From: a virus
Lineage: Duplodnaviria > Caudoviricetes
DNA: 50,973 nucleotides
Reading direction: 5' to 3' (one strand)
IMG/VR virus record: IMGVR_UViG_3300018080_000032
Span: 1 to 50,973 of that record
Shown piece after piece: positions 5,501 to 40,895 of this stretch. The position numbers and the translations under genes were made by a program. Every line of letters starts with the position of its first letter. Positions within the stretch are counted from its first letter, which is position 1. Below the pieces are notes generated by a model. That model saw only the letters and a list, made by a program, of their open reading frames with translations. It ran no database searches and was not told the DNA's origin.

Positions 5501-6730
5501 AAGCATCCGCTCGTTGTAGGAAGCGGACTGCTCCTCGGCAAGCCCCAGCGCGTTTCGCACGTCATCGATCGCCGGGATGAGAGTGGTGTTGATGAACTGC
5601 TTGGCCGTGTCGATTGCGCCCGGCATGGCATCGCGGAACATCGTCACGACGTCTTGGGCGACGGGAAGAAGGGCATCACCGAGAGCAGCCATGCCATCCG
5701 CCGCCATGGCTTTGATCTGCTTCGCCGCGTTAGGCAGAGAGGAGGCGGCCGTCCGCTCGAAATCGCCCGCAGCCTTTGTGCTGTCCTCCTGGATGAGCGC
5801 CCACGCGGCTTGAGCCTTGGCGCCCGCATCCAGCTCGCCGATGGACTCCTTGACGGAGCCAGCTGTCTTGCGCTGGGCCGACTCTAGACGCAGCTGCGAT
5901 TCGCGCGCCTCGAGGCTCTCAGCGCCGTATTTCGCGACGACACCGGCATGCTTCTCCTGAGCAATGGCCAGCTTCTCGGCGGCTCCCTCGGCCACGGTGT
6001 GTGTGTAGGTGACCTCGACCAGGCCCATCTCGAGAGCCTTGGCCTCGATGCGCGCCTGGTTGAGATTGACTCCGAGGGCCTTCAGCGGCTCCGCCTCACC
6101 GACGAGCCCAGCCCGCAACTTCTCGAGCACGTCCGCCGTCGGCAGGTTGTTGAACGAGCCCAGATCAGCCGCGAGCTGCACGATCTCCGTCGACATTCCA
6201 GCGGCGGCCTCTTCGTTGAGGCCCATTGCCACCAGTAGGTTGCCGTACGTACCCGACGCTTCCAGCGCTTCCCCCCGGCTCATGCCGAGGGCCATGGCCG
6301 AGTCGGCGGCGAACTCATCGATGATGTGCGCACTCTCGCCGAAGACGACGTTCACCTTGTTCTGACTCTCGGACACGTCCGAGGCCATCATCACTGACTT
6401 CAGCCCGAATCCAGCGGCGGCGATACCGCCAGCCGCGAGCCCCGCGATCGCCCACTTGGCCGCCTTGCCGAGAAGCTCCATCTGCCGTGAGGAGCTAGCG
6501 GCCGCATCGCCGGCGGCCTTCACGTCCCGGGCGGCCCCTTCGGCTTCGTCACCTAGGCCTTCCACGCGATCGCCAGCGCTCTCAGCCGACTTGCCGAACC
6601 CTACTACTTCGGTGTCAGCCACCTCAGCGGCTTCCGCCACGCCAACGACCTCCGCCTTCACCGCGCGGAGATCGCCGGTGTCGGCATCGGTGTCGATGAC
6701 GAGTACGACTTCGGTTCGGCCGCTGCTCAC
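2573..6730 (-). CDS. Tape measure protein
   Basis: 1385 aa; Ala/Gly-rich helical N-terminus (SESQNKVNVVFG, LAADLGSFNN), hydrophobic segments, GIESPSR motif, long coiled coil. Confidence 0.95.
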   Translation of the reverse strand: MSSGRTEVVLVIDTDADTGDLRAVKAEVVGVAEAAEVADTEVVGFGKSAESAGDRVEGLGDEAEGAARDVKAAGDAAASSSRQMELLGKAAKWAIAGLAAGGIAAAGFGLKSVMMASDVSESQNKVNVVFGESAHIIDEFAADSAMALGMSRGEALEASGTYGNLLVAMGLNEEAAAGMSTEIVQLAADLGSFNNLPTADVLEKLRAGLVGEAEPLKALGVNLNQARIEAKALEMGLVEVTYTHTVAEGAAEKLAIAQEKHAGVVAKYGAESLEARESQLRLESAQRKTAGSVKESIGELDAGAKAQAAWALIQEDSTKAAGDFERTAASSLPNAAKQIKAMAADGMAALGDALLPVAQDVVTMFRDAMPGAIDTAKQFINTTLIPAIDDVRNALGLAEEQSASYNERMLLTGEASGEAGTEQSELYETLVEMRDMWDENKEAVQGALEAIQDILGWIKDNKQIVVNFIAVLALFKAGLMIGGAVNAAVTALKAYQAAMATGAISTGVMRTAIQLLLGSTGIGLLLVLIGVLYMAWTQNWGDIQGKTDKAVKKIVGFFKNLKREWDRLVDKFKSVDLSKIGEDIMTGLKDGMDYAWEIIKGWVAEKIEALPAIIKQFFGIESPSRLMMEIGRLIMEGLALGIRYGGQLPLDAMREAINDLMGLRSELDQLRSEFETVWADVNPQVEVKDWDNLEQRMEAYRKSLEETRRKLKESHDEHLDQLDKAASGSQKEWYVEAIEVQKDNAKAAYEERMKQLDDEERRLEEVYETWVAGAEAVEEAHDRAVEAIERAQEGAENYAERVNEAVMQMLEDEAEARKAAYDAAMAALDDLQDAEDKRHKSVMDGLKKERETWQKHLTDWAERISDLKLDLATLEVDLNIPAELERLALLQGKLAELKTVVDSLQVFGPDSAREREQMRKSQAERIRLTTQEQREMLEASKHLFSGEQLRSIELLLAGYSQRASTVRDLFAEIERDLGGQIGAQQSIIDAKQAEIDKLKEHIANEEYLLKIEQDRVQTILEGIAERERVAEEFHNAETARIDGLKEAERDAYDAWKDNHDLRVDAERDRHQQRMADIAAEFAYELALLDHSQEEIDALVREAQRIAEEIGRRAAEIYGQSAKEAERAIEQTTQAGSGGVATIVDLAGTSIDETEQATLTAIDAIAQGVAEFRSQAEQPIAIPIRLDLGDPLGAATGGEEGKTLAYYQRLWQRAQSYAGKEGFRAAGFADWMEQWFPGEMERLQREGTGAAAGTGIFAPLVTAAIEASSVIQDMFFDPLSIGLTTTIELVGELGEAFADIGGSGFTEGGAFTAGEGFTFSGPVQAQAVEVEHFSPTIQNTIVATLELPGGHNFGELAVKDIKNNVILLDELGRALEKRREGSAVTT

Positions 6731-26849: not shown

Positions 26850-27186
26850 GGCTTGCCTCCGCGCTCAACTTGCGCTCGCCCCAAGCGAACCAAGCGGCCA
26901 TGATGCGATCGTACTGCTGACTCGCGGCATCGGCCGTGGCTTCGAAGTCCTCGCCTGGCCAGTAACCCCGCTCGCTGAATCGCTCGCCGGCGGTCTCGTG
27001 GGTCGTGCCATCGAACGGATTCCGAAACCAGAATAGCTCGACGTCGCCGCCTGAACTGTCAGCATTCAGTCGCACCGAGGCCAGGTCCTCGAAGTGCAAC
27101 ACACCGACGGCTTCGCCGCTACTCAGTAGGAGCCCGTCAGGCATCGGCCTAATATCGATCACGCTCTCCCAATAGAGCACGGTCAC
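26839..27186 (-). CDS. Hypothetical protein
   Basis: 115 aa, overlapping both neighbours. Confidence 0.55.
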   Translation of the reverse strand: MTVLYWESVIDIRPMPDGLLLSSGEAVGVLHFEDLASVRLNADSSGGDVELFWFRNPFDGTTHETAGERFSERGYWPGEDFEATADAASQQYDRIMAAWFAWGERKLSAEASHDE

Positions 27187-28613
27187 ACCTCCGGGATCTC
27201 ATCCCATGTTCGCCCGTCGAGCTCGCGGCCGGCCGCCTTCTTGCCATAGCGGCACATCGTTGCCCCGTCGAGCTTCGCCGTAGGATGGTCGCGCCCGTCG
27301 TCTATCGGCTCGCTGAGGGGCGCCCATGCCCCCCAAGACTTGAAGAAGAACGGCACGCCCGCGGCCTGGCACTCGTCGCGCAGCGCCCGGGGCCACGCCG
27401 GATCCATCGGCCTCGCGCCCGGCCCGCTCTCGCCGCCGGCGATCACCCAGTCGAGCGATCCCGGACAGCAAGGCCTGTGCGCTTTGCCATGTGGCAGCCC
27501 AACATGAGGGCCAAACGCAAGGCGGAGGTTGATTGGCCCCAGCAGCGGCTCGCAGCTCACGAACCGCACGGCCGCCGGCGTATCGAGGAGAACCGGGATC
27601 CGCTCGTCGGCGGTCGCCTGATCCTCGACGCTGACGCCGAGCCAAACCCCTGGCAACGGCCACGTAGGCTCGTGCGGCGGCGCCCACTGGCGGCCGGTAG
27701 CGATGTTCCTCGCCTGGGTATCGGAGATGCCGTACCGCCGCCCAAGCTCGGCGCCACTGACGCCGGCTGCGCTCGCTGCGCGCAGCTCTTCAACCTGAGC
27801 CTCCGTCAGCTTCGAGTAGCGACGTCTCGTGCCATGCCGCTTGCTGTCGTCCCAGTTCGATGACTGCGTTCCCCATCGCAGGTTCCACAGGGCGTTGTTG
27901 GTCGGGTTTCCGTCGATGTGGCAGCACTGCTCATCGCCCACACGAGGGCGATCGAAGGCTCCAAGTACGAGGTGGTGGATGAGCGGGCGCCCGGTCTCCT
28001 CACCGCGGTAGAGCATGACTCGCGCGTGTCCTTGACCACCCGACATCGGCGTCATCTCCCGACGCTCTCCCTTGTGGTCGGAAAAGACCCGACCCTTGGT
28101 GGTGACCCAGTAGCCTGGCCAACCCTCAATGGCCTCGAAGCGCTCAGCGGCGAACACCTCCTCGATGCGACCGGCCACCGCAACGTGCTTCATCAGGTCA
28201 ACGCGGGCTGGGAAGCCTGCGTCGCTGAGCAGCGATTGCATCCGCTCCGGCCGCTTCGTGAGCACCTGGAACGTGTGCTGCGGACACGCGGCCATTACTC
28301 CAAACACAACCGCGATCTGTTCGTCAGTCAGCCCCTCGTGGAACAGGTCGCTCATGCTGTCCACGAACACCATCGCCGGCTCGCGCCAGCTGAGGGGCTC
28401 CGCCAGCTTCTCCTCGACCAGCCGGACCTCGCCAGTCCAGCGCGGCCCGGGCGGCGTCATCTCGGCCAGCCCCTCGTAGGGCATGCCCGGCCCCGAGAAG
28501 CGCGCCGCGATCCTCTCGGCGTAGCAGTGCTCGCAGCCAGCCGAGACGCGGGTGCAGCCCCGGATCGGGTTCCAGGTGTGCTCAGTCCATTCGATGTTGC
28601 TCTGCCTACCCAC
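27183..28613 (-). CDS. Phage Gp37/Gp68 (DUF5131) protein with an in-frame NUMOD4-HNH endonuclease insertion
   Basis: IEWTEHTWNP, GCTRVSAGCEHCYA, SMSDLFH, LTKRPER, then the insert, then VWLGVSVEDQ, SCEPLLG, WVIAGGESG and PFFFKSWG. Confidence 0.92.
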   Translation of the reverse strand: MGRQSNIEWTEHTWNPIRGCTRVSAGCEHCYAERIAARFSGPGMPYEGLAEMTPPGPRWTGEVRLVEEKLAEPLSWREPAMVFVDSMSDLFHEGLTDEQIAVVFGVMAACPQHTFQVLTKRPERMQSLLSDAGFPARVDLMKHVAVAGRIEEVFAAERFEAIEGWPGYWVTTKGRVFSDHKGERREMTPMSGGQGHARVMLYRGEETGRPLIHHLVLGAFDRPRVGDEQCCHIDGNPTNNALWNLRWGTQSSNWDDSKRHGTRRRYSKLTEAQVEELRAASAAGVSGAELGRRYGISDTQARNIATGRQWAPPHEPTWPLPGVWLGVSVEDQATADERIPVLLDTPAAVRFVSCEPLLGPINLRLAFGPHVGLPHGKAHRPCCPGSLDWVIAGGESGPGARPMDPAWPRALRDECQAAGVPFFFKSWGAWAPLSEPIDDGRDHPTAKLDGATMCRYGKKAAGRELDGRTWDEIPEV

Positions 28614-28809
28614 GCGCCCTCCTGATCTGCGGGCCCACCGAGCTCGGCTCACCGGACTCCCGCTCAGCCCTTCGCATCGTCTCGATCGCCACCATCACCG
28701 CGCGAGCCAGACCAACCGCCTCGTCGTGCCGGACCTGGCCGCCGTTGTCGTGGATCACGAGTATGCGATCCGCTAGGCGCTCAGCTTCGGCAAGGTGGTG
28801 GCTACTCAT
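28606..28809 (-). CDS. Small hypothetical protein
   Basis: MSSHHLAEAERLADRIL...; overlaps both neighbours. Confidence 0.45.
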   Translation of the reverse strand: MSSHHLAEAERLADRILVIHDNGGQVRHDEAVGLARAVMVAIETMRRAERESGEPSSVGPQIRRARG

Positions 28810-30819: not shown

Positions 30820-31083
30820 TCAAGCTGCCTCCGCTCCTTCAGTGCCTCCTCCGGCGCACTCCAGGGCCGCCGCCGGCACAATGCCGCGCGAGACAACGTG
30901 ACCGTGCGCGTCCCGCACCAGCTTGATGTCGCCGTCACGCTCCAGGCCCCGAAGGTGGTACGAGATGACGCTTGTCGAGGCGCCACCAACAGCTTCAGCG
31001 AGCTCGCGGATGGATGGGCTAATGCCGTGCTCGGCCCGGTGGTCGAGTATGGCTTGTAGGATGTCAGATCGTCTGTCTGTCAC
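30820..31083 (-). CDS. LexA-type N-terminal DNA-binding domain protein (no S24 peptidase)
   Basis: TDRRSDILQAI...HGISPSIRELAEAVGGASTSVISYHLRGLERDG...SRGI. Confidence 0.9.
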   Translation of the reverse strand: MTDRRSDILQAILDHRAEHGISPSIRELAEAVGGASTSVISYHLRGLERDGDIKLVRDAHGHVVSRGIVPAAALECAGGGTEGAEAA

Positions 31084-31183
31084 CGGTTCTTCCTCTCTTC
31101 GCTCCTCGGGGGCACCGGCTGCCCCAACCGATGCCCCCTCAAGGAGGAGGACCCGTGACCGTTCTAGCGAACGGCTGGGTCAG

Positions 31184-31338
31184 TGTGGTCGGCGGGGCCT
31201 CGAACCCCGTCAGGGCTTTCGCGCGGTTGCTACTCCGCTGGGCCGTCTCTCGCTGGTGTGCGGCCTGGTTGTCATTCACGTCCAGAGCAGAACGCTTCAC
31301 CACGTCAGCGCCCAAGCGCGCCTTTACGCGTCGACCAC
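31184..31338 (-). ncRNA. tRNA-like RNA (~155 nt) with multi-hairpin insert
   Basis: Closing stem GTGGTCG/CGACCAC + A, T-arm CGGGG-TTCGAGG-CCCCG, D-like CGCG-TAAAGG-CGCG; no anticodon arm. Confidence 0.65.
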
Positions 31339-31349
31339 TTGGTTGTTAA

Positions 31350-31465
31350 TGGGGCCGTCCAGGTCGCTCACCTGCCGGATGCCGACGCCGTTCGTTCTTG
31401 TCAGCACGGCCTCACACTGTGCCTCCGGCCACGCCTTAGCGACGCGGTGCCCTCGATGCGGCCCC
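31350..31465 (-). ncRNA. Acceptor-stem-closed structured RNA (~116 nt)
   Basis: GGGGCCG/CGGCCCC + A, 3' hairpin CAGG-TGAGCGA-CCTG with a non-canonical T-loop, two further internal hairpins. Confidence 0.5.
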
Positions 31466-31468
31466 AAG

Positions 31469-31570
31469 TGGCAGCGTCCGGAGTCGAACCGGGGTTGTAG
31501 TGCCAACCGGCCAGTACTAGGGCATTGCCCGTTCCCAACCGTGCGCGCTCCGATGGGCGCCGCCGCTGCC
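31469..31570 (-). ncRNA. tRNA-like RNA (~102 nt) with a branched domain replacing the anticodon arm
   Basis: GGCAGCG/CGCTGCC + A, CCGG-TTCGACT-CCGG T-arm, GCGC-CCATCGGA-GCGC D-like arm, GGTTG/CAACC-closed insert. Confidence 0.65.
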
Positions 31571-31597
31571 AAGTTGTGAAGGTGCACTTACCCTCAA

Positions 31598-31670
31598 TGG
31601 GCTGGGGAGGACTCGAACCTCCGACACCGGCCTTATCAGAACCGTGCTCTCACCGCTGAGCTACCAGCCC
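31598..31670 (-). tRNA. tRNA-Ile(GAT)
   Basis: GGGCTGGTAGCTCAGCGGTGAGAGCACGGTTCTGATAAGGCCGGTGTCGGAGGTTCGAGTCCTCCCCAGCCCA folds as a full cloverleaf with loop CTGATAA; CCA not encoded. Confidence 0.95.
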
Positions 31671-31676
31671 GACAGG

Positions 31677-31877
31677 TCACCTCTCGTGCCACGCCTTGAT
31701 GCCGTGGCGCTTGCGAACGATCGTTCCGGCCTCGTTGATCGGCCGCAGACCGATGGTCTTGTAGCCCTCCGCGAGTGCTATTCGCTCAGCTTCCTCGAGG
31801 ACCTCGTCCATCTTGTCCTCGCCGAGCTGATACTTGAGGGCGCCCAGGCTATCCCTCGCCGCGCGAGTCAGCTTCAT
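31677..31877 (-). CDS. 66-aa helical protein (histone-fold-like or PCP_red-like)
   Basis: MKLTRAARDSL...EEAERIALAEGYKTIGLRPINEA; ATGA-coupled. Confidence 0.55.
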   Translation of the reverse strand: MKLTRAARDSLGALKYQLGEDKMDEVLEEAERIALAEGYKTIGLRPINEAGTIVRKRHGIKAWHER

Positions 31878-31999
31878 CGGTCGTCCTCGAGATCGCGCGC
31901 CGTGCCGACGATGCCGACCGTCAGCAGCCCGAGCATGAAGCACAGCGGGCCGTAGAGCGCGATGAAGACCCAGACCCAGGTGCTATCGCACTGCGCCAT
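31874..31999 (-). CDS. 41-aa single-TM peptide
   Basis: MAQCDSTWVWVFIALYGPLCFMLGLLTVGIVG..., preceded by a GGAGG RBS. Confidence 0.5.
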   Translation of the reverse strand: MAQCDSTWVWVFIALYGPLCFMLGLLTVGIVGTARDLEDDR

Positions 32000-32363
32000 T
32001 GACGGCCTCCTTCGGTAGCCTGATGTACAGGACGTTGCCGGCGAGCTTGGGAGCAGCACGAACCGGCTCTTCGACGCTGATGCCGTAGTGGGCCATTGCG
32101 CACCCAACACTCACCAGGCGCGAGCTCGTGCCGTTGCCGGGGGCTCTTAGGGCATAGCCATGTCCCTCGCCCTTCTTGGCCGCGCGCACCCCGATGGCGC
32201 GGTTGTCGGCATCCCACATGATCACGACCTGGTCGGGGTAGTGGATCATCCGGGCCGCCTCGTCGGTGAGCTGCAGCTTCCCGCTTGGCCAAAGCGACAT
32301 CATCGGACCGTTCGGCTTGTGCACCCGCTTGTGCACGAATTGCTCGAAGTGAAGCTCGGGCAT
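31983..32363 (-). CDS. Hypothetical protein
   Basis: 126 aa, strong RBS, coupled to the upstream gene. Confidence 0.6.
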   Translation of the reverse strand: MPELHFEQFVHKRVHKPNGPMMSLWPSGKLQLTDEAARMIHYPDQVVIMWDADNRAIGVRAAKKGEGHGYALRAPGNGTSSRLVSVGCAMAHYGISVEEPVRAAPKLAGNVLYIRLPKEAVNGAVR

Positions 32364-33334
32364 CAGTCGACCTCCATTTCAGCCTGCTTGGCCTTGCCCT
32401 TCTTGGGGGAGGGGGCAGCATCGCCGCCGCCCCCTCCATCGGCAGGTGTGGGGGTATCGCCAGACCATTCGTAGTCCTCGTCGGCCATCTCATCGAGGCG
32501 CTCGTTGATCTCCGACGTGCCCGTATCGCGCTTGGCCTTGAAGTCGAAGTGGTCGGAGCGCTTGGAGTTGCCGTCGCGGATGGACGTATAGACACCGCGT
32601 AGGTCGGCGAGCTCGTCTTCCGTGATGAGCTCCAGGTCATGCTCGAGGTGGTCCGCCAACATCGCTGACGTGACCCCGATCTGGTCGAACGCCAAGGCCA
32701 GGCGGCGAATGGCGGCCCCCTTGTCTTGGGCAATCTCGTTCCGAGCCGCCTTCGTCAACGTCTCGACCGCCGTTCGCTCGGCCTCTTCCGTCACGTCCGG
32801 AGGAATGAGCTGGAGGATGCAGTTGCGCACCAGGACGGCGCCGCGCCTGTTGGTGAGCTCCCGCAGGTCCCGCTCGTCGGGCTCGACCCACTCCGTGCGG
32901 CCGTTGCGCTTCCGTTGGATCAGTCGAGCGAACTGGTCTTCGGCCTCGACGTAGCCGTTGGTTTCCAGATCCAACGCGTAGGCCCGAATGTGGACGTTCT
33001 GCTCGTCGACGCTCACGATTCGGAGGCCGTATCTGATGTTTCCCCATACACGGGCCATCTCGCGGGCCAACTTCACGCTCGGTCCGCTGACCTGCTTGCC
33101 GCCACGAGGGAAAGCGTAGCGGGCGCCTTCCGCGAAGCCCGGCCGCTGACACGAGCGGATGATCTTGGTGTAGGCCGCGGCCTCGTCACGCGGGAAGCGC
33201 TTGGCGACGACGATGGCCGACTCGATCTCGGTCTTCTCGCGTTGGACGATGGACTGGATACCGCCGTCCTGTTGCTCCTGCTCCTCGAATCCGGCGAGCT
33301 CTGCCGGGGACGGTACGATCTCTGTGTTCGTCAT
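32363..33334 (-). CDS. Putative single-strand annealing recombinase partnering the exonuclease
   Basis: AKRFPRDE...YAFPRGG...GPSVKLA...WGNI phage family; ATGA-coupled to the RecE-like gene; acidic tail. Function inferred from context. Confidence 0.65.
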   Translation of the reverse strand: MTNTEIVPSPAELAGFEEQEQQDGGIQSIVQREKTEIESAIVVAKRFPRDEAAAYTKIIRSCQRPGFAEGARYAFPRGGKQVSGPSVKLAREMARVWGNIRYGLRIVSVDEQNVHIRAYALDLETNGYVEAEDQFARLIQRKRNGRTEWVEPDERDLRELTNRRGAVLVRNCILQLIPPDVTEEAERTAVETLTKAARNEIAQDKGAAIRRLALAFDQIGVTSAMLADHLEHDLELITEDELADLRGVYTSIRDGNSKRSDHFDFKAKRDTGTSEINERLDEMADEDYEWSGDTPTPADGGGGGDAAPSPKKGKAKQAEMEVD

Positions 33335-34170
33335 GCTGCCTCTCCTAGCCTCTCGTCTATCTGTCGCGGGGCCCAGACGGGGATGTCGATCACCTCGACG
33401 TTCTCGCTGTATCCCGGCCATGTGTCGGATTCCAAGCACTCTGCGTACCGATCCAGCAGCGGCCGCAGCTCACGCGTGCCGTCTTGGATTGCCTCGATGG
33501 ACAACTCGTATAGCGCGACGCCATAGGGCGGATCCTTCTCAATCGCCACAAACGCGAAGTTGCGGAACGGTAGTCCCAGCGCCTTCGCTCCACCCAGGTA
33601 GTGAGCCGCCTGGATGTGGTAGCCGTAGTTCCAGATGTCGCGGTGGAACGGATCGCGGGCTGCGCATCGAGTCGTTTTCAAATCGACGATGGTGCCCGTT
33701 TTGTGCCCCAATAGGTCAAATCGCCCTCGCGCCAGCACCCCCGTCGGCTCGTCGATCCATAGCGCCGACTGCTCGGCATCCCCGATCAGAAGCTGCCGCG
33801 CCTTCGGATGCGCCGCGATCGCGTCGCGGATCGCAAGGCAGGTGTCGTGGTCGGACGCTGACAACACCGTTGCCTCGGGATGCTCAGCAGCGAGAGCCGC
33901 GCGCGCTTCCTTGACCGCTTTCGTCCGACCGTCGCCCTCGACGTTGCGGACCCAGGCCGTCTCGAAAAGCTCCGGCAGTAGCACGCAGTCGTGCACCGCC
34001 GAGCCGAGGATCTGCGCCGGCGTCGACGGTGACGGATGATCCATCTGCCACTTGAGGTGCGCCGGCGAGAGGTCGCGAAGCGTCTTCAGCATTGACTGCG
34101 AGACGCCCGGAAGCTGGTGGTACTCCTCCATCGGGATGTTCGGGTAGAGTCCTGGCGCGAGCTCGCTCAT
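33331..34170 (-). CDS. RecE/exonuclease VIII-like PD-(D/E)XK nuclease (DUF3799)
   Basis: EEYH...SQSMLK, GSAVH, RGRFD, DLKTT, YGYHIQAAHY, EKDPPY and WPGY motifs. Confidence 0.9.
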   Translation of the reverse strand: MSELAPGLYPNIPMEEYHQLPGVSQSMLKTLRDLSPAHLKWQMDHPSPSTPAQILGSAVHDCVLLPELFETAWVRNVEGDGRTKAVKEARAALAAEHPEATVLSASDHDTCLAIRDAIAAHPKARQLLIGDAEQSALWIDEPTGVLARGRFDLLGHKTGTIVDLKTTRCAARDPFHRDIWNYGYHIQAAHYLGGAKALGLPFRNFAFVAIEKDPPYGVALYELSIEAIQDGTRELRPLLDRYAECLESDTWPGYSENVEVIDIPVWAPRQIDERLGEAA

Positions 34171-35411
34171 GCCGATACCCTCTCAGCCACCTCTCCATCC
34201 TCGATCAGCACGCTGACCTCGGGACCATCGGAGACCCTTTCCAGCCACACTTGCGCCTCAGCCTCTTCGGCCATCTTCGCCACCAGCGCCAGGTTGTCGT
34301 CGTCGAGGAGCGAGCCGTCGCGGATCAGCAGCACCCGCAGCTCGGGGTTCGCGGCGAGACCCATCGCGACCGACACGCGCAGTTGCTCGGCGCTCGACGC
34401 CTGGTCGAAGGGGATGCCGTTCAGCAGCACGCGATCCTCGTCGAAGCTCAGGCCCTCGACGGGGAACGCGGCTTCGGCGAGCGCGTGTCGCTTCTGGTTG
34501 TCGAGCTCGGCGATCTTGGCCGTCAGGTCGTCGTAGGCCAGGTGCGCGGCCATGTGCTCGCGCTCAACGCTGGTGCGTTCTTGTGCAGCGCGGTGCTTCG
34601 CGTTGAGCTCGTCGGCGTCGGCGATCTGCTCTTCCCACGGCGCGGTATCAATCGCCATTATCGACTTCAGCGCCTCCTCGCCCTCAGCTACGTCTTTCTG
34701 CGCTCTGCTGAGCGTGGCGCGCGCCTGTTTCAGCAGTCCCTCCAGTTCCTTGACCTTCCGCTCCGCTAGCTCTAGGGAATGCCGACGGTCCTCTAGCACC
34801 CTCCCAGCCTCGGCGTAGCGAGCATTGTGCGCCTGCGCCGTCTTCAGCTTCTCCATCAGCTCGGCAACACTCACCAGCTTCTCCGGCGCGTCCTCGACAA
34901 CAGGCATTCCCGCCAGCTGGCCCTCGAGCCGCTTCACGTCGCGGCCGATCTCGGTGCGGTCGTGGTAGACCTGGTCGCGCTCGGCATCGAGGTCCGCGAA
35001 GTCCAGCCCCACCAGCTCCTTCAGGGCCTCGACCTGGTCGCGCGGCGTCATTGCCGTGAAGGCCAGCGGATCGAACGACAGCCGACCCACCAGCCCGTCG
35101 AGCACTGTCTGCGGCGACTTGGCGCTGAACCCGTTGCCGGAAGTCACCCGCAGGTAGCTATCCTTCTCTGTCCAGGTGCGCTCGACTACGAACTCGCCAA
35201 GGTCGACCCTGGCACATGCCTTCTCTTCACCATCGCGAATCGGCTTCGACGGGCACAGCGCCTTGCCTCCGAGGGCGTAGGCGATCGAATCGAGCACCGA
35301 TGTCTTTCCCGCGCCGTTCTTGCCACCGATCACGACCAGGCTACCGTCGGGCTCGATGTGAACGGCCTTGAGTCGCTTGACGTTGGTTGCTTCCAGGGCA
35401 ACGATCTTCAT
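34167..35411 (-). CDS. SMC/Rad50-like AAA ATPase
   Basis: GKNGAGKTSVLD Walker A, coiled coil, ASSAEQ signature and LLIRDGS. Confidence 0.9.
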   Translation of the reverse strand: MKIVALEATNVKRLKAVHIEPDGSLVVIGGKNGAGKTSVLDSIAYALGGKALCPSKPIRDGEEKACARVDLGEFVVERTWTEKDSYLRVTSGNGFSAKSPQTVLDGLVGRLSFDPLAFTAMTPRDQVEALKELVGLDFADLDAERDQVYHDRTEIGRDVKRLEGQLAGMPVVEDAPEKLVSVAELMEKLKTAQAHNARYAEAGRVLEDRRHSLELAERKVKELEGLLKQARATLSRAQKDVAEGEEALKSIMAIDTAPWEEQIADADELNAKHRAAQERTSVEREHMAAHLAYDDLTAKIAELDNQKRHALAEAAFPVEGLSFDEDRVLLNGIPFDQASSAEQLRVSVAMGLAANPELRVLLIRDGSLLDDDNLALVAKMAEEAEAQVWLERVSDGPEVSVLIEDGEVAERVSA

Positions 35412-36226: not shown

Positions 36227-36481
36227 CTAATTGGCTGCTGTGCGCCGTTTCCTGGCGGCAACGCGACCAGCGTCGGTGAGCATGACCCCGCGTGCCGTCT
36301 CGGCCCATAATGTGACATGGCCCTTGCGCTCCAGTTGCTCCAAATGCCATCGCGCCGACGTGTATGAGCGCCCGACTGCCTCGCCAATCTCGCGATGTGT
36401 CGGCGGCAACTCACCCGCCTCTTCGCGTCTCAGAAGCTCGACCAGGATCGCCAGCCGAACTGCGTCTCCCTTGTCTGTCAC
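36227..36481 (-). CDS. Second LexA-type DNA-binding-domain protein (Cro/repressor candidate)
   Basis: PPTHREIGEAVGRSYTSARWHLEQLERKG...ARGVML; GTG start after an AGGAGGAG RBS. Confidence 0.85.
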   Translation of the reverse strand: MTDKGDAVRLAILVELLRREEAGELPPTHREIGEAVGRSYTSARWHLEQLERKGHVTLWAETARGVMLTDAGRVAARKRRTAAN

Positions 36482-38401: not shown

Positions 38402-38920
38402 TTAGGTAGCGGCACGACAGCCTTCCCACCCAAAGAACTTGCTCGCCCACTCGAAGTCGCAGCATGCTCGCGCCGCCGCCTCGGAGTCCGTGTGCATATC
38501 TCCGACGAACAGCGTCTCTCGCGGACTCACTCCATACGCCCCCATAATCGACAGCAGCATCCCGGGCTTCGGCTTCCGGCACGCGCAGTGCGATCGCGGC
38601 CCGTGCGGGCAGATCCGGATCCCGAGCGCAGAGTTGTGAACAAGGCCGTTGCCCCGCTCCCATCCGAAGGCCTGCTCGGCCAGATCGCGCAGTAGGCCGA
38701 GAGCAATCGGAGCAGTCAAGTAGCCAAGAGCGATCCCGGCCTGGTTGCTGGCGATGCCGAGGTGGCAGTCGAGGTCCGCAATCCTCTCTCGGACTCCAGG
38801 GATCAGCTCCCACTCACCGGCCCGGTTAGGACACGGCTGACCCTCCACCGTGCACCGCCGGAGCGTGCCGTCAGCGTCGAAGATGATTAGGTGGTATTTG
38901 GATACGTGCTTACTGGGCAA
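38402..38920 (-). CDS. HAD-IIIA phosphatase (GmhB / polynucleotide 3'-phosphatase-like)
   Basis: FDADGTL, ASNQAG, ICPH, CACRKPKPGM and FVGD motifs. Confidence 0.9.
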   Translation of the reverse strand: MPSKHVSKYHLIIFDADGTLRRCTVEGQPCPNRAGEWELIPGVRERIADLDCHLGIASNQAGIALGYLTAPIALGLLRDLAEQAFGWERGNGLVHNSALGIRICPHGPRSHCACRKPKPGMLLSIMGAYGVSPRETLFVGDMHTDSEAAARACCDFEWASKFFGWEGCRAAT

Positions 38921-39062: not shown

Positions 39063-39995
39063 CTAGTCAAGAGCTTTCTCCATCGCGCCAGCCGCCAGGG
39101 CTTGCGTCTTGCGGTCGACGTGGCTGTAAATGCTCATCGTGTGAGCCATCGTGGAGTGGCCCAGCGTCTGCTGGATGACTCGCGGATGCACGCCCTGCTC
39201 GACCAACAAGGTGGCGCAGGTGTGGCGCAGGTCGTGGAACCTCCGGTTCTTCAATCCGGCCCCCTTGAGCTGGCGCTGGAACTCCCGCTGGACAGTCGAT
39301 CGATGCAGCGGCCGGCCGAGCCGAGTGGTGAAGACCAGGTCGCTATCGTGCCAGTTCTTGGTGCCAACCTGCAGCCTCCTCCTCGACTGAGCTTCCCACC
39401 TTCGAGCCAGTGCTTCCGCGGCGAGCTCAGGCATCCGGAGCGACCGGACACTATCCTGCGTCTTCAGCGGCACCAGCATGAACTCGTGGTCAATGATTTG
39501 AAGCTGCTGACGAATGTGCAACGTCCGCGTGCTGAAGTCGACGTCCGACCACTTGAGGCCAAGGAGCTCTGCCTGGCGCAATCCCATCGTGATTGCCACG
39601 ACGTAGAGCGCCTCGTACCAGTCGCCGGCGACGTGCTCGAAGAACGTGTGAACCTCCGACGACGACAGCGGCATGCCCTTCTTCGGAACCACCCGCGGCA
39701 GATCCACTGCGTCGGCCGCGTTGGTCATCACGAGGCCCCAGGCGATCGCGCGCCTGAGCGCAATCCTGAGCGTGCTGCGGATCTTGCCGACCGTGCCGGG
39801 CTTCAGGCCCTCGGCGAGCATCTGAGCGATGAATCGCTGCACCTGGTAGGGCGTGAGCTCGTCGATCGGAATCTCCCCGAGAGCAGGCACGATGTGTACT
39901 CTCACGTGTGACTCGTGGATCGACCAGGTCTTCCAGCGGCGGTTCGGTTTCACTGCCACGTCGAGCCACTCGGCCAGGTACTCCTCGAGCGTCAT
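39063..39995 (-). CDS. int: Tyrosine integrase
   Basis: GLRQAELLGL, PLKT, FHDLRHT, LGHS and TMSIYSHV give the R-K-H-R-H-Y set; ATG 39995 is coupled to the upstream gene. Confidence 0.93.
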   Translation of the reverse strand: MTLEEYLAEWLDVAVKPNRRWKTWSIHESHVRVHIVPALGEIPIDELTPYQVQRFIAQMLAEGLKPGTVGKIRSTLRIALRRAIAWGLVMTNAADAVDLPRVVPKKGMPLSSSEVHTFFEHVAGDWYEALYVVAITMGLRQAELLGLKWSDVDFSTRTLHIRQQLQIIDHEFMLVPLKTQDSVRSLRMPELAAEALARRWEAQSRRRLQVGTKNWHDSDLVFTTRLGRPLHRSTVQREFQRQLKGAGLKNRRFHDLRHTCATLLVEQGVHPRVIQQTLGHSTMAHTMSIYSHVDRKTQALAAGAMEKALD

Positions 39996-40363
39996 GGCTC
40001 CCACCTTCGGCCCTGGCCGGGAGTCCAGGGCGTTGCAGCCTTGTATTCCCCCCAGGCCTGGGCGACGCACATCCAGTAGACGACCGTGTGGGTCCATTGA
40101 TCGGTTCGCAGGAGCACCATGTAGGGTAGGCGCCCCTGGTCGCGCAGCACCTTCACTCGACCGCGACCGATCATCATGTGCTCGCCCGCCGTCGTGCTCC
40201 CGACGGCTAGCTGAGAGATGTCGATCGACGGCAACAGCCGGGCCTGCAGCGCCGCGTTGACATCGCTCAGCCCCTGATCCAGGAGCTGCTGCTGCAGGAT
40301 CTCGCGGGCTCGGTCTCGGAGTGGGTCCGGCAGCGCGGACCACCTCCACGTTTCTTCCGTCAC
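39992..40363 (-). CDS. Hypothetical protein coupled to the integrase
   Basis: AGGAGGAG RBS and ATGA overlap with int. Confidence 0.6.
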   Translation of the reverse strand: MTEETWRWSALPDPLRDRAREILQQQLLDQGLSDVNAALQARLLPSIDISQLAVGSTTAGEHMMIGRGRVKVLRDQGRLPYMVLLRTDQWTHTVVYWMCVAQAWGEYKAATPWTPGQGRRWEP

Positions 40364-40624
40364 GGCTCCTCCTGTCGGTTACGGGGGCTGCAGTATCCTC
40401 CGCGGATGAGGGGAGCGAACGTGACAGTCTGGTTACAGGCGCATCGCTTTCGGCAGGGGGCCGATTTGTTGCGGCTCTCGAGCGGAGCGATGTATCATGC
40501 GAGGCTGCCGCCGGAGCTGGACGATCCAGCGGCATGGCCTCGGGGTGGTCACTCACCACGGGGCCTTCTCCTTTGGGTTGATGTGAAGACGGATCGAGCC
40601 TGGCGACTCGGAGCTACCTCATAG

Positions 40625-40643
40625 ATGATAGCACAGACGTTCT
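40625..40643 (-). promoter_or_regulatory. SOS-box-like site overlapping an extended -10, facing the integrase operon
   Basis: AGAAC-GTCT-GTGC-TATCAT; one mismatch to GAAC-N4-GTTC. Confidence 0.5.
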
Positions 40644-40670
40644 AAGACCGGGGGCGGATACGGCCAGTTG

Positions 40671-40690
40671 TTGTCCACCGGCTATCCACA
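40671..40690 (+). promoter_or_regulatory. Two tandem DnaA-box-like 9-mers
   Basis: TTGTCCACC and CTATCCACA compared with consensus TTATCCACA. Confidence 0.4.
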
Positions 40691-40724
40691 GCGCTGGTTT
40701 GATGTGCTGCGTATCCTAGACGAC

Positions 40725-40895
40725 AGGCGTCCCCGCTTGCCTGGCGTTTGCCATGCGACTTCTCAACGCAAATGGGATCCGGCCGGTTCCCAAGCCTCAC
40801 ACCCGTGCGATCCGGAGGGTTGGCGACTGCACGTTACCGCGAACGGTGCCTCATCGCCAGGGGGTAGGCGCCAGGATTGGGACAGGGGAGCGCCT
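40725..40895 (+). ncRNA. Orphan structured RNA (~170 nt)
   Basis: Ends pair (AGGCG-TCCCC / GGGGA-G-CGCCT; CCTGGCGTTTGCC / GGTAGGCGCCAGG with G-U pairs); TATCCT lies 7 nt upstream. Confidence 0.55.

What the first reader, a model, noticed from the sequence alone, without database searches (positions are those of the whole stretch)
31184..31670. Tandem array of tRNA-scaffolded non-coding RNAs behind a genuine tRNA-Ile
Seen: a ~500-bp stretch with no convincing protein gene holds four head-to-tail minus-strand units separated by only 27, 3 and about 11 nt. They are tRNA-Ile(GAT), then units of ~102, ~116 and ~155 nt. Each extra unit is closed by a perfect 7-bp acceptor-like stem followed by A (GGCAGCG/CGCTGCC, GGGGCCG/CGGCCCC, GTGGTCG/CGACCAC). 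Two have canonical GGTTCGA T-arms and D-like hairpins, but the anticodon arm is replaced by different multi-hairpin inserts. Known: acceptor stem plus T-arm is what RNase P, RNase Z and the CCA enzyme recognise, as used by tmRNA and P1 C4 RNA; YrlA Y RNAs also mimic tRNA. Inference: the phage uses a tRNA scaffold to cut a polycistronic transcript into several stable cargo RNAs. These could be decoys for anticodon nucleases, antisense regulators or defence-protein sponges. Intact stems with unrelated sequences argue against simple tRNA decay. This is my best candidate for an undescribed system.
Basis: partly seen in the sequence, partly recalled or inferred. Interest (0 to 1): 0.85.

Follow-up and report, generated by a model that had tools for sequence, protein, structure and literature searches.

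The report
tRNA-like stable-RNA array behind phage tRNA
A temperate phage from a sediment metagenome carries, directly behind a normal isoleucine tRNA gene, three structured non-coding units, two of them built on a tRNA frame with the anticodon arm replaced; the layout matches phage T4's long-known RNAs C and D, whose function is still unknown.

Summary
tRNA-Ile(GAT) at 31598-31670(-) is genuine. It is followed after 27, 3 and 11 nt by units of 102, 117 and 155 nt, each closed by a perfect 7-8 bp stem plus A.

Perfect 7-bp stems are common here (12.7 per kb). The strong evidence is different: 3 of the genome's 4 T-arm-like hairpins lie in this 487-nt stretch, each 0-1 nt from an acceptor 3' strand. 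Units 1 and 3 are therefore tRNA-derived scaffolds. Unit 2 has no T arm, but its closing stem is unlikely by chance (130 of 20000 shuffles).

None of the three is a decodable tRNA, an Rfam family or a conserved ORF.

The system is not undescribed. T4 has the same layout, tRNA-Arg, then rnaD, then rnaC with 1- and 6-nt spacers, and rnaC carries a T arm. Their roles are unknown (PMC3014915, PMC9697503). Irregular tRNA polycistrons are also in print (PMC5389517).

I found no homologue of the three units, so covariation could not be tested, and no RNA data exist. Best reading: stable RNAs co-transcribed with the tRNA and cut out by the tRNA-processing enzymes, cargo function unknown. This is a new variant of a known kind.

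The parts
31598..31670 (-). tRNA-Ile(GAT), 73 nt, no encoded CCA
   Evidence: ARAGORN; Rfam RF00005 65.8 bits, E 3.5e-12
31571..31597 (-). 27-nt spacer with a small hairpin between tRNA-Ile and U1
   Evidence: sequence; MFE of the 601-nt stretch
31469..31570 (-). U1, 102 nt. Class-II-tRNA-like scaffold with acceptor 31570-31564/31476-31470 and discriminator A31469. It has a long-stem D-like hairpin, a 6-bp 'anticodon' stem carrying an extra GGGC-AAU-GCCC hairpin instead of a 7-nt loop, and a variable-arm hairpin. The T arm is 31492-31478 (CCGG-TTCGACT-CCGG) plus a C.A layer.
   Evidence: Weak Rfam tRNA-Sec match, 14.2 bits, E 9.6. Not called by ARAGORN. The best non-self match of its covariance model is a class II tRNA-Leu, 16.7 bits, E 1.4.
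31350..31466 (-). U2, 117 nt. Multi-hairpin RNA closed by an 8-bp stem (UGGGGCCG/CGGCCCCA). It has no T-arm consensus; a 5-bp/5-nt-loop hairpin sits 2 nt before the 3' strand.
   Evidence: The closing stem fills the U1-U3 gap in 130 of 20000 shuffles. No Rfam match.
31184..31338 (-). U3, 155 nt. tRNA-like scaffold with acceptor 31338-31332/31191-31185 and discriminator A31184. It has a 5-bp D-like hairpin with a tetraloop, a central hairpin of about 76 nt and two small hairpins. The T arm is 31209-31193 (CGGGG-TTCGAGG-CCCCG), with one extra C (31192) before the acceptor.
   Evidence: No Rfam match. Only a below-threshold, off-register ARAGORN call with lowered scores.
31084..31183 (-). Trailer between U3 and the next gene. 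It holds two hairpins, the second a 14-bp G+C-rich stem enclosed by CUCCUC/GAGGAG, and no T run. The start of the LexA-DBD gene follows.
   Evidence: MFE. No terminator-like site on the minus strand.
30820..31083 (-). Downstream gene: 87-aa protein with a LexA-type winged-helix DNA-binding domain
   Evidence: Pfam PF01726, E 1.2e-10
31677..31943 (-). Upstream small gene (66-88 aa, no family). It ends 6 nt before the tRNA-Ile.
32363..33439 (-). RecT-like/phrog_3657 gene of the recombination module (the ATPase and exonuclease genes lie upstream of it). It served as the anchor for finding related loci.

Best explanation
The stretch is a tRNA-linked array of stable non-coding RNAs, of the kind known from T4 (tRNA-Arg, rnaD, rnaC).

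Proposed mechanism:
1. It is read through from the upstream recombination genes as part of one minus-strand transcript.
2. RNase P cuts at G1 of tRNA-Ile, U1 and U3, because each offers a 7-bp acceptor stem stacked on a T arm with an intact T loop.
3. The 3' ends are trimmed and CCA is added, since none is encoded.
4. U2 is set free as the piece between the 3' end of U1 and the RNase P site of U3, and is trimmed back to its 8-bp terminal helix.
5. U1 and U3 are natural equivalents of the laboratory 'tRNA scaffold': acceptor, D and T arms are kept, and the anticodon arm is replaced by cargo hairpins. This gives precise ends and nuclease resistance.

The cargo most likely acts in trans on a protein, as a binder or decoy, rather than by base pairing with the phage's own RNAs.

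Shown: the structures, their tRNA derivation, their placement, that they are neither tRNAs nor a conserved gene, and the T4 parallel. Inferred: transcription, processing, stability and any trans function.
For: - 3 of the 4 T-arm-like hairpins of the genome lie in this stretch, each 0-1 nt from a perfect 7-bp acceptor partner followed by A. Random expectation is 2.6 per whole genome.
- It is the only chain of three A-terminated stem-closed units in the genome, against 0.12 per random strand.
- The folds keep the closing stems both in context and alone.
- It lies on the same strand as all neighbouring genes, with no promoter- or terminator-like site on that strand.
- T4 shows the same order and spacing, and rnaC has a CCGGG-UUCGAAU-CCCGG T arm. 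Like U1, rnaC gives a weak Rfam tRNA-Sec match (17.5 bits against 14.2).
- The synthetic tRNA scaffold (acceptor, T and D arms kept, anticodon arm replaced) is described as recognised by E. coli cellular factors and as protecting the inserted RNA (passages of PMC3753655).
- Other phage loci with a related RecT-like gene carry a tRNA at the same place: 3 of 118 loci that have enough downstream sequence.
- Two such loci carry a tRNA-like unit that ARAGORN does not call: L105 11677-11814 and L171 about 6461-6541. L171's own fold is weak (z -0.77; the MFE keeps only part of the acceptor pairing).
- The L105 unit shares its 24-nt 3' end exactly with a canonical tRNA-Asn of another viral contig. Such units therefore do arise from tRNA genes.
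Against: - No homologue of U1, U2 or U3 was found, so there is no covariation and no evidence of purifying selection.
- Fold z-scores are modest (-1.6 to -2.4), and the whole 601-nt stretch reaches only -1.65.
- U2 has no tRNA feature beyond the stem and the A.
- The D-like hairpins of U1 and U3 are not canonical. U1 has G8 and U3 has A8 instead of U8.
- The nearest viral relative with the same gene order (L089, RecT-like 62% identical) has a single ordinary tRNA and no extra units. The extras are therefore dispensable in kin.
- No function is known even for the T4 RNAs.
Confidence: 0.5

Rival explanations
1. These are relics of a former tRNA cluster. U1 and U3 are tRNA pseudogenes whose middle parts were disrupted by insertions or recombination, and U2 is filler. 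They may still be cut out, but they have no function of their own.
For: - None has a usable anticodon loop.
- No homologues were found.
- L089 has only one tRNA at this place.
- The L105 unit is visibly derived from a tRNA-Asn-type gene.
- Pseudo-allo-tRNAs with disrupted stems are reported (PMC5389517, section 16).
- Phage genomes are mosaic here: none of the five flanking small genes has a match in the 176 loci tested.
Against: - All three closing stems are perfect Watson-Crick with no G.U pair, and both T loops keep the TTCGA consensus and the closing G-C pair. Free decay long enough to add 30-80 nt would be expected to break some of these.
- The inserted parts themselves fold into clean hairpins.
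- The U2 stem fills the gap exactly (p about 0.0065).
- A temperate 51-kb phage rarely keeps 400 nt of dead DNA inside an operon (general knowledge).
Confidence: 0.25
2. The function lies in the cuts, not in the RNAs. The tRNA-like elements act as RNase P/RNase Z punctuation. They separate the mRNA of the upstream recombination genes from that of the downstream LexA-type regulator and replication genes, and so set different stabilities or translation for the two halves.
For: - The array sits exactly between two gene blocks, with no promoter- or terminator-like sites.
- The trailer forms a strong hairpin that pairs a CUCCUC with a GAGGAG just ahead of the next gene's ribosome-binding region.
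- Related loci keep a single tRNA at the same junction.
Against: - One tRNA would be enough for punctuation. Three more units of 102-155 nt with elaborate inserts are not needed.
- No such role is documented for the T4 array. I did not search the literature for one.
Confidence: 0.12
3. U1, and perhaps U3, is a working non-canonical tRNA of the allo-tRNA/tRNA-Sec-like kind. It would be charged and used in translation or as a suppressor, possibly after removal of an insert.
For: - U1 has a long variable arm, a 6-bp anticodon stem, a long D stem and a 7+1+4 acceptor/T branch. It also has a weak tRNA-Sec match.
- U3 has a D stem with a tetraloop and a 13-layer branch.
- Such shapes are described for allo-tRNAs, some of them in phages (PMC5389517, section 13).
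- RecT-like relatives occur in MAGs labelled Acidobacteriota and Planctomycetota. Acidobacteria carry allo-tRNAs (PMC5389517).
Against: - There is no 7-nt anticodon loop with U33 in either unit. The U1 loop is 20 nt with an internal hairpin.
- ARAGORN intron mode finds nothing at default scores.
- The Rfam scores lie far below gathering (14.2 against 47).
- The discriminator is A, not the G or U of most allo-tRNAs (PMC5389517, section 13).
- No bacterial splicing route for such inserts is known (general knowledge).
Confidence: 0.06
4. The stretch encodes a small protein (the 87-aa ORF 31324-31587, or its 47-aa 3' part), and the RNA structures are incidental.
For: The 47-aa part, 31324-31467, scores like the weakest real small genes in my codon model (11.4 in total). 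GC3 is 0.75.
Against: - No Pfam or PHROG family.
- No relative among 5.8 billion proteins, and the ORF itself is not on record as a called protein.
- The whole-ORF codon score is 0.096 per codon, against 0.19-0.64 for real genes.
- There is no Shine-Dalgarno motif before either start.
- The ORF cannot explain the T arms and acceptor pairs.
Confidence: 0.04

Closest known systems
Phage T4 rnaC (species 1 RNA, 139 nt) and rnaD (species 2 RNA, 119 nt)
   Same: - Both lie head to tail directly 3' of a tRNA gene on the same strand, with tiny spacers (T4: 1 and 6 nt; here: 27, 3 and 11 nt) and sizes of 100-160 nt.
- rnaC has a canonical T arm next to an acceptor-like closing helix, and long hairpins where the anticodon arm would be. 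Like U1, it gives only a weak Rfam tRNA-Sec match.
- rnaD has no T arm, like U2.
- The function is unknown (passages of PMC3014915 and PMC9697503).
   Different: - There is no sequence similarity beyond the 19-nt T-arm consensus.
- The closing helix of rnaC is imperfect in my fold, whereas the stems here are perfect.
- There are three units here instead of two.
- This is a temperate, 64% G+C, 51-kb phage with one tRNA, not a T-even phage with eight.
Allo-tRNAs and polycistrons of irregular tRNA-like sequences (Mukai et al. 2017, PMC5389517)
   Same: - tRNA-Sec-like shapes: a long V arm, long D stem, longer anticodon stem and unusual acceptor/T split.
- Five-stem junctions and polycistronic arrangement.
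- Found in soil and sediment data and in phage tRNA clusters.
- The authors suggest that some are regulatory non-coding RNAs (sections 13 and 16).
   Different: - Allo-tRNAs keep a 7-nt anticodon loop and mostly have G73 or U73. U1 and U3 have no anticodon loop and have A73.
- The 8/4 or 9/3 split is not clearly met.
- The paper's structure figures and supplements could not be seen.
Synthetic 'tRNA scaffold' for recombinant RNA (Ponchon and Dardel; PMC3753655)
   Same: Acceptor, T and D arms are kept and the anticodon stem-loop is replaced by a hairpin-closed insert. The design is described as recognised by E. coli cellular factors and as protecting the inserted RNA (passages).
   Different: It is an engineered construct, not a natural family. 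It shows how the design works, not what these RNAs do.
tmRNA and YrlA-type bacterial Y RNAs (tRNA mimics)
   Same: They use a tRNA-like module (acceptor and T arm) joined to other RNA domains.
   Different: - ARAGORN at default settings finds no tmRNA, and there is no tag reading frame.
- There is no Rfam match to tmRNA or Y RNA families.
- In YrlA the RNA ends lie in the Ro-binding stem, not in the acceptor stem (recalled).
- No Ro/TROVE protein was found among the 50 ORFs scanned.

Membership tests
Canonical tRNA (Rfam RF00005 / ARAGORN) | Cloverleaf scoring above threshold | tested here: not met
   Only 31598-31670 passes (65.8 bits). U1-U3 give no tRNA match even at E up to 10. ARAGORN at default and in intron mode finds none.
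Canonical tRNA (Rfam RF00005 / ARAGORN) | 5-bp anticodon stem with a 7-nt loop (U33, anticodon, R37) | tested here: not met
   In U1 the loop region is 20 nt with an inner hairpin. In U3 it is a hairpin of about 76 nt. U2 has none.
Canonical tRNA (Rfam RF00005 / ARAGORN) | 7-bp acceptor stem, discriminator, and 5-bp T stem with a T-loop consensus directly stacked on it | tested here: met
   U1: 7 bp + A, T stem of 4 bp plus a C.A layer, loop TTCGACT. U3: 7 bp + A, T stem of 5 bp, loop TTCGAGG, one extra C. U2: stem and A only.
T4 rnaC/rnaD-type tRNA-cluster stable RNAs | Placed directly 3' of a tRNA gene, on the same strand, with spacers of a few to a few tens of nt | tested here: met
   Window gaps are 27, 3 and 11 nt. 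T4 gaps are 1 and 6 nt.
T4 rnaC/rnaD-type tRNA-cluster stable RNAs | 100-160 nt, with a T arm beside a terminal closing helix in at least one member | tested here: met
   U1 and U3; rnaC.
T4 rnaC/rnaD-type tRNA-cluster stable RNAs | Sequence homology to rnaC or rnaD | tested here: not met
   blastn finds only the 19-nt T-arm consensus, E 0.06-0.1. The covariance models R1-R3 find nothing in the T4 locus L166.
T4 rnaC/rnaD-type tRNA-cluster stable RNAs | Accumulates as a discrete stable RNA during infection | not testable with these tools
   No RNA run holds the phage.
Allo-tRNA (PMC5389517) | 12-bp acceptor branch split 8/4 or 9/3 | tested here: inconclusive
   U1 has 7 Watson-Crick pairs + G.A + 4 = 12 layers only if the G.A is counted. 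U3 has 7 + an A.C or bulge + 5 = 13.
Allo-tRNA (PMC5389517) | Long V arm, and a long D stem with a tetraloop | tested here: inconclusive
   U1 has a 5-bp V-arm hairpin, and a D stem of 6-8 bp whose loop is 3 or 8 nt. U3 has a 5-bp D stem with an AAAG tetraloop but no single V arm.
Allo-tRNA (PMC5389517) | Normal anticodon loop; G73 or U73 in most | tested here: not met
   No 7-nt loop, and A73 in all three.
tmRNA | tRNA-like domain plus a tag reading frame and pseudoknots; detected by ARAGORN or Rfam | tested here: not met
   None at default settings. There are only unidentified-tag calls at an 80% threshold, and no Rfam match.
attP copy of a host tRNA 3' half | Only the 3' part of a tRNA is present, next to the integrase | tested here: not met
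   The 5' acceptor strands are present. The integrase gene is 7.4 kb away, at 39063-40004. True 3'-half fragments were seen in L109 and L164/L165 for contrast.

The most novel reading that the evidence does not exclude
tRNA-scaffolded cargo RNAs may be a widespread, overlooked class of phage accessory RNA. The class would run from T4 rnaC/rnaD to this high-G+C temperate phage. It would also take in look-alikes seen here in unrelated contigs: the L070 three-unit array with repeated hairpin spacers, the L105 138-nt unit at the same tRNA slot behind the RecT-like gene, and the L026 tRNA-Met followed by about 370 nt of strongly structured RNA. The scaffold hijacks host tRNA processing to deliver protein-binding cargo, for example decoys or sponges for host defence or RNA-surveillance proteins. 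If so, this would finally give the T4 RNAs a function.
Probability: 0.15. Interest if true: 0.8.

Novelty: new variant of a known kind. Interest (0 to 1): 0.5.

Why it matters
The T4 RNAs C and D have been known for about fifty years without a function. A second, sequence-unrelated array with the same layout, in a very different temperate phage, shows the arrangement is not a T-even oddity. Two of its three units are textbook tRNA scaffolds with replaced anticodon arms. This gives a cleaner model: perfect stems, defined predicted ends, and only one true tRNA beside it. If the cargo RNAs prove to bind host or defence proteins, this would be a general way for phages to make stable regulatory RNAs by borrowing tRNA maturation. 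It would also be a natural precedent for the synthetic tRNA scaffold. If they are relics, the locus still documents how tRNA genes turn into other RNAs.

Tried and rejected
Homologue search for U1-U3 (all negative):
- blastn 'distant' of 31100-31750 against 50,697 phage records hit only the tRNA part (11 records).
- blastn and nhmmer of the units against 85 loci, 79 loci and 11 loci (blastn only): nothing with E below about 0.03.
- Exact 3'-end strings of U3 and U1 in viral contigs: 0 hits each.
- Whole records of the five viral contigs queried, chosen from the higher-identity RecT-like hits: one 14-nt match, E 0.1.
- Single-sequence covariance models R1 (U1), R2 (U3) and R3 (U2) over the window plus 178 loci (1.99 Mb): only the self matches are significant. 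Non-self matches all have E of 1 or more. R1's best is the class II tRNA-Leu of L027. I folded only one of them, L095 6416-6524, which has z -0.57.
- R1 over five MAGs: 0 matches.
- R1 over 151 + 151 genomes of two phyla: one match of 30.6 bits. It is a 21-nt G+C-rich identity inside coding-looking DNA without a T arm, so I rejected it.

Flanking genes: the five small flanking proteins have no tblastn match in the 176 loci searched. The 87-aa LexA-DBD protein has no relative in viral contigs.

RNA evidence: no RNA holder is listed. Laying the contigs of X1-X3 showed only the same phage (identical 216-nt and 151-nt pieces) and unrelated tRNA pieces, so there were no variants to use.

Antisense idea: the longest complementarity of U1-U3 to either strand of the genome is 11-13 nt, the same as for shuffled units.

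Other readings considered and dropped:
- Archaeal-type or group I intron-bearing tRNA: ARAGORN intron mode is negative, the sizes are wrong, and the relatives are bacterial.
- Permuted or two-piece tmRNA.
- attP fragment (see Membership tests).
- Chance: see the statistics.

Loose scan: my scan for 'T arm + 7-bp partner' over all loci gives many hits that I take as mostly chance; I ran no shuffle control for it. I use only L070-B, L105 and L171, each of which has further tRNA features and lies between genes. I make no claim of enrichment from that scan.

The supplementary figures of PMC5389517 (irregular tRNA structures, S5 and S6) could not be seen and may bear on whether U1 and U3 resemble those sequences.
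Full report
**What the window is.** The window is a complete viral record: 50,973 bp, direct terminal repeats, 64% G+C. Nearly all genes lie on the minus strand. It is a temperate phage with a tyrosine integrase at 39063-40004. The finding sits inside an early block:
- an AAA/SbcC-like ATPase (34167-35411);
- a PD-(D/E)XK exonuclease (33331-34170);
- a RecT-like phrog_3657 protein (32363-33439);
- two small genes;
- the RNA stretch;
- an 87-aa LexA-type DNA-binding protein (30820-31083);
- replication genes further on.

The nearest cultured phages are Arthrobacter phages, at about 45% identity in the ATPase. RecT-like relatives occur in MAGs labelled Planctomycetota, Longimicrobiales and Acidobacteriota. 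The host is unknown.

**Checking the observation.** ARAGORN and Rfam agree on one tRNA, tRNA-Ile(GAT), at 31598-31670(-). Three units follow on the same strand:

| Unit | Coordinates | Length | Closing stem |
|---|---|---|---|
| U1 | 31469-31570 | 102 nt | 7 bp + A |
| U2 | 31350-31466 | 117 nt | 8 bp including the A |
| U3 | 31184-31338 | 155 nt | 7 bp + A |

The gaps are 27, 3 and 11 nt. The minimum-energy fold of the whole 601-nt region, and of each unit alone, keeps all three closing stems.

This genome has 645 such stems with spans of 70-170 nt per strand. Chains of three occur about nine times per random strand. Requiring an A after each stem leaves this chain as the only one in the genome, against 0.12 per random strand.

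The strong evidence is the T arm. Hairpins with a stem of at least 4 bp and a TTCRANN loop number four in both strands (2.6 expected at random). Three of them lie within this 487-nt stretch on the minus strand, each ending 0-1 nt before an acceptor 3' strand. U1 and U3 are therefore tRNA-derived beyond reasonable doubt. U2 has no T-arm consensus, but a perfect stem that spans the U1-U3 gap end to end arises in only 130 of 20,000 shuffles.

**What the units are not.**
- *Not tRNAs.* There is no Rfam tRNA match even at E up to 10. U1 gives only a 14.2-bit tRNA-Sec match at E 9.6. ARAGORN finds nothing at default or intron settings, and only off-register calls at lowered thresholds. There is no 7-nt anticodon loop.
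- *Not another Rfam family*, and not a tmRNA.
- *Not a conserved gene.* The 87-aa ORF 31324-31587 has no Pfam or PHROG match. It has no relative among 5.8 billion proteins, and it is not itself on record as a called protein. Its codon score is below all real genes. A 47-aa sub-ORF scores like the weakest small genes, so I keep a small residual probability for coding.
- *Not an attP half-tRNA.* Both acceptor strands are present and the integrase is 7.4 kb away.

**Anatomy.**
- *U1* reads as a class-II-like tRNA frame. It has a 7-bp acceptor and a long-stemmed D-like hairpin whose loop contains GG. A 6-bp 'anticodon' stem carries an extra GGGC-AAU-GCCC hairpin instead of a loop. It also has a 5-bp variable-arm hairpin and a T arm of 4 bp plus a C.A layer, then A73. 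The best non-self match of its covariance model in 2 Mb of related loci is a class II tRNA-Leu, at 16.7 bits and E 1.4, which is not significant.
- *U3* has the acceptor, a 5-bp D-like stem with a tetraloop, a central hairpin of about 76 nt, two small hairpins, a 5-bp T arm, one extra C, and A73.
- *U2* is a three-hairpin RNA inside an 8-bp terminal helix.

None encodes CCA, and neither does the tRNA-Ile.

**Comparison with what is known.**
- *Phage T4.* The T4 record shows tRNA-Arg, then 1 nt, rnaD (species 2, 119 nt), then 6 nt, rnaC (species 1, 139 nt), all on one strand. This is the same layout. rnaC folds with a canonical T arm (CCGGG-UUCGAAU-CCCGG) beside an imperfect terminal helix, and with long hairpins in the middle. 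It gives the same kind of weak tRNA-Sec match as U1, at 17.5 bits. rnaD has no T arm, like U2. There is no sequence similarity beyond the T-arm consensus.
- *Function of the T4 RNAs.* Two papers state that their roles are unknown. [quoted passage not shown]
- *Irregular tRNAs.* Mukai et al. (PMC5389517; abstract and sections 13, 14 and 16 read) describe allo-tRNAs with tRNA-Sec-like shapes, five-stem junctions, inactive forms, and polycistrons of irregular tRNA-like sequences in soil and peat metatranscriptomes. Some are in phage tRNA clusters, and some may be regulatory RNAs.
- *Synthetic scaffold.* The laboratory tRNA scaffold (passages of PMC3753655) keeps the acceptor, T and D arms and replaces the anticodon arm with an insert. 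The paper describes it as recognised by E. coli cellular factors and as protecting the embedded RNA.

It is not undescribed.

**Relatives and the same genomic slot.** I collected 171 loci around RecT-like relatives: 79 viral after two were left out as ATPase-only hits, 80 metagenomic and 11 from MAGs, plus one early hit.
- None holds a homologue of U1-U3 (see Tried and rejected), so covariation cannot be tested.
- The position does recur. Of 118 loci with at least 1.5 kb downstream, 3 have a canonical tRNA within 1.5 kb after the RecT-like gene: L089 tRNA-Arg, L168 tRNA-Met and L026 tRNA-Met. These are 3 of only 7 tRNAs in all 171 loci.
- L089, whose RecT-like protein is 62% identical, has the tRNA alone.
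- L105 has at that place a 138-nt unit that ARAGORN does not call. It has a 7-bp acceptor, a class-II-like D arm, a canonical 7/5 T arm and an insert of about 75 nt. Its 24-nt 3' end is identical to that of a canonical tRNA-Asn in another viral contig. This is direct evidence that such units descend from tRNA genes.
- L171 has a 590-nt non-coding stretch ending in an 86-nt tRNA-like sequence with CCA that ARAGORN does not call. Its own fold is weak (z -0.77; the MFE keeps only part of the acceptor pairing).
- L026 follows its tRNA-Met with about 370 nt of strongly structured RNA (z -3.6).
- L070, elsewhere on its contig, has three stem-closed units of 76, 97 and 136 nt separated by four copies of a 21-nt hairpin repeat. 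The middle unit is tRNA-like, with a tRNA-Sec match of 21.4 bits at E 0.25.

These are analogies, not homologies. My loose scan that found them has a high chance rate, which I did not quantify with a control.

**How it most likely works.** The array is transcribed with its operon; no promoter- or terminator-like site lies on that strand. RNase P cuts at the 5' ends of tRNA-Ile, U1 and U3. The 3' ends are trimmed and receive CCA. U2 is released as the piece in between, protected by its terminal helix. The tRNA frames give U1 and U3 defined ends and stability.

All of these steps are inferred from the structures, from the T4 parallel and from the behaviour of synthetic scaffolds. None is shown here.

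The cargo function is unknown. Pairing with the phage's own transcripts is not supported. Among 50 ORFs scanned, none is a Ro, RNA ligase or CCA enzyme. One is a HAD/PNK3P-like phosphatase (E 1e-4). I give 0.5 to 'processed stable tRNA-linked RNAs of the T4 rnaC/rnaD kind'. The rivals get 0.25 (functionless relics), 0.12 (punctuation only), 0.06 (working odd tRNA) and 0.04 (coding).

**Verdict.** This is a new variant of a known but unexplained kind. Interest is moderate (0.5): the structures are real and clean, and the class has lacked a function for decades. Against that, there is no conservation or expression evidence for this instance, and the claim of an undescribed system does not stand.

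Noticed in passing
L070:6217-6605 (+): A low-G+C metagenomic phage contig holds three stem-closed units: 76 nt, 97 nt (tRNA-like with D and T arms; Rfam tRNA-Sec 21.4 bits, E 0.25; not called by ARAGORN) and 136 nt. Each is flanked by a 21-nt hairpin repeat (four copies). The whole-region fold has z -3.6. The repeat has no exact match in viral contigs.
   Followed up: partly
L105:11677-11814 (+): A 138-nt tRNA-like unit lies in the intergenic gap at the same slot behind the RecT-like gene. It has a canonical 7/5 acceptor/T branch and an insert of about 75 nt. Its 24-nt 3' end is identical to that of a canonical tRNA-Asn(GTT) in viral contig L178 (816-891).
   Followed up: partly
L026:8013-8380 (+); L171:5995-6585 (+): In L026, tRNA-Met directly after the RecT-like gene is followed by about 370 nt of strongly structured non-coding RNA (z -3.6). 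L171 has a 590-nt non-coding stretch at the same place, ending in an 86-nt tRNA-like sequence with CCA that ARAGORN does not call; its own fold is weak (z -0.77).
   Followed up: partly
window 31084-31183 (-): The trailer after U3 forms two hairpins. The second is a 14-bp G+C-rich stem enclosed by CUCCUC/GAGGAG, just upstream of the ribosome-binding region of the LexA-DBD gene. It could be an attenuator or a translational control element.
   Followed up: no
window 27183-28652 (-): The DUF5131 (PF07505) protein matches the family in two stretches, with NUMOD4 and HNH_3 matches between them (about residues 165-325). This suggests an in-frame homing-endonuclease insertion or an intein-like element.
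   Followed up: no
window 38402-38920 (-) and 39063-40004 (-): A HAD-type phosphatase with a weak polynucleotide kinase 3'-phosphatase match (PF08645, E 1e-4) lies next to the tyrosine integrase. The 532-nt gap at 40364-40895 may hold attP.
   Followed up: no
window 30820-31083 (-) and 36227-36481 (-): There are two small proteins with LexA-type DNA-binding domains and no peptidase domain (PF01726, E 1e-10 and 9e-8). One lies immediately downstream of the RNA array.
   Followed up: no
window 31464-31471 and 31335-31342 (-): An 8-bp perfect alternative helix (CCACUUGG/CCAAGUGG) could pair the U1 3' end and spacer with the spacer and U3 5' end. It would enclose U2 and compete with the U2 stem. 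It is possibly a precursor structure, possibly chance.
   Followed up: no
L109:2279-2352; L164 and L165:3334-3405: These are tRNA 3' halves (anticodon arm to CCA) without a 5' acceptor strand, typical of attP/att sites. They served as a contrast to the complete units in the window.
   Followed up: partly
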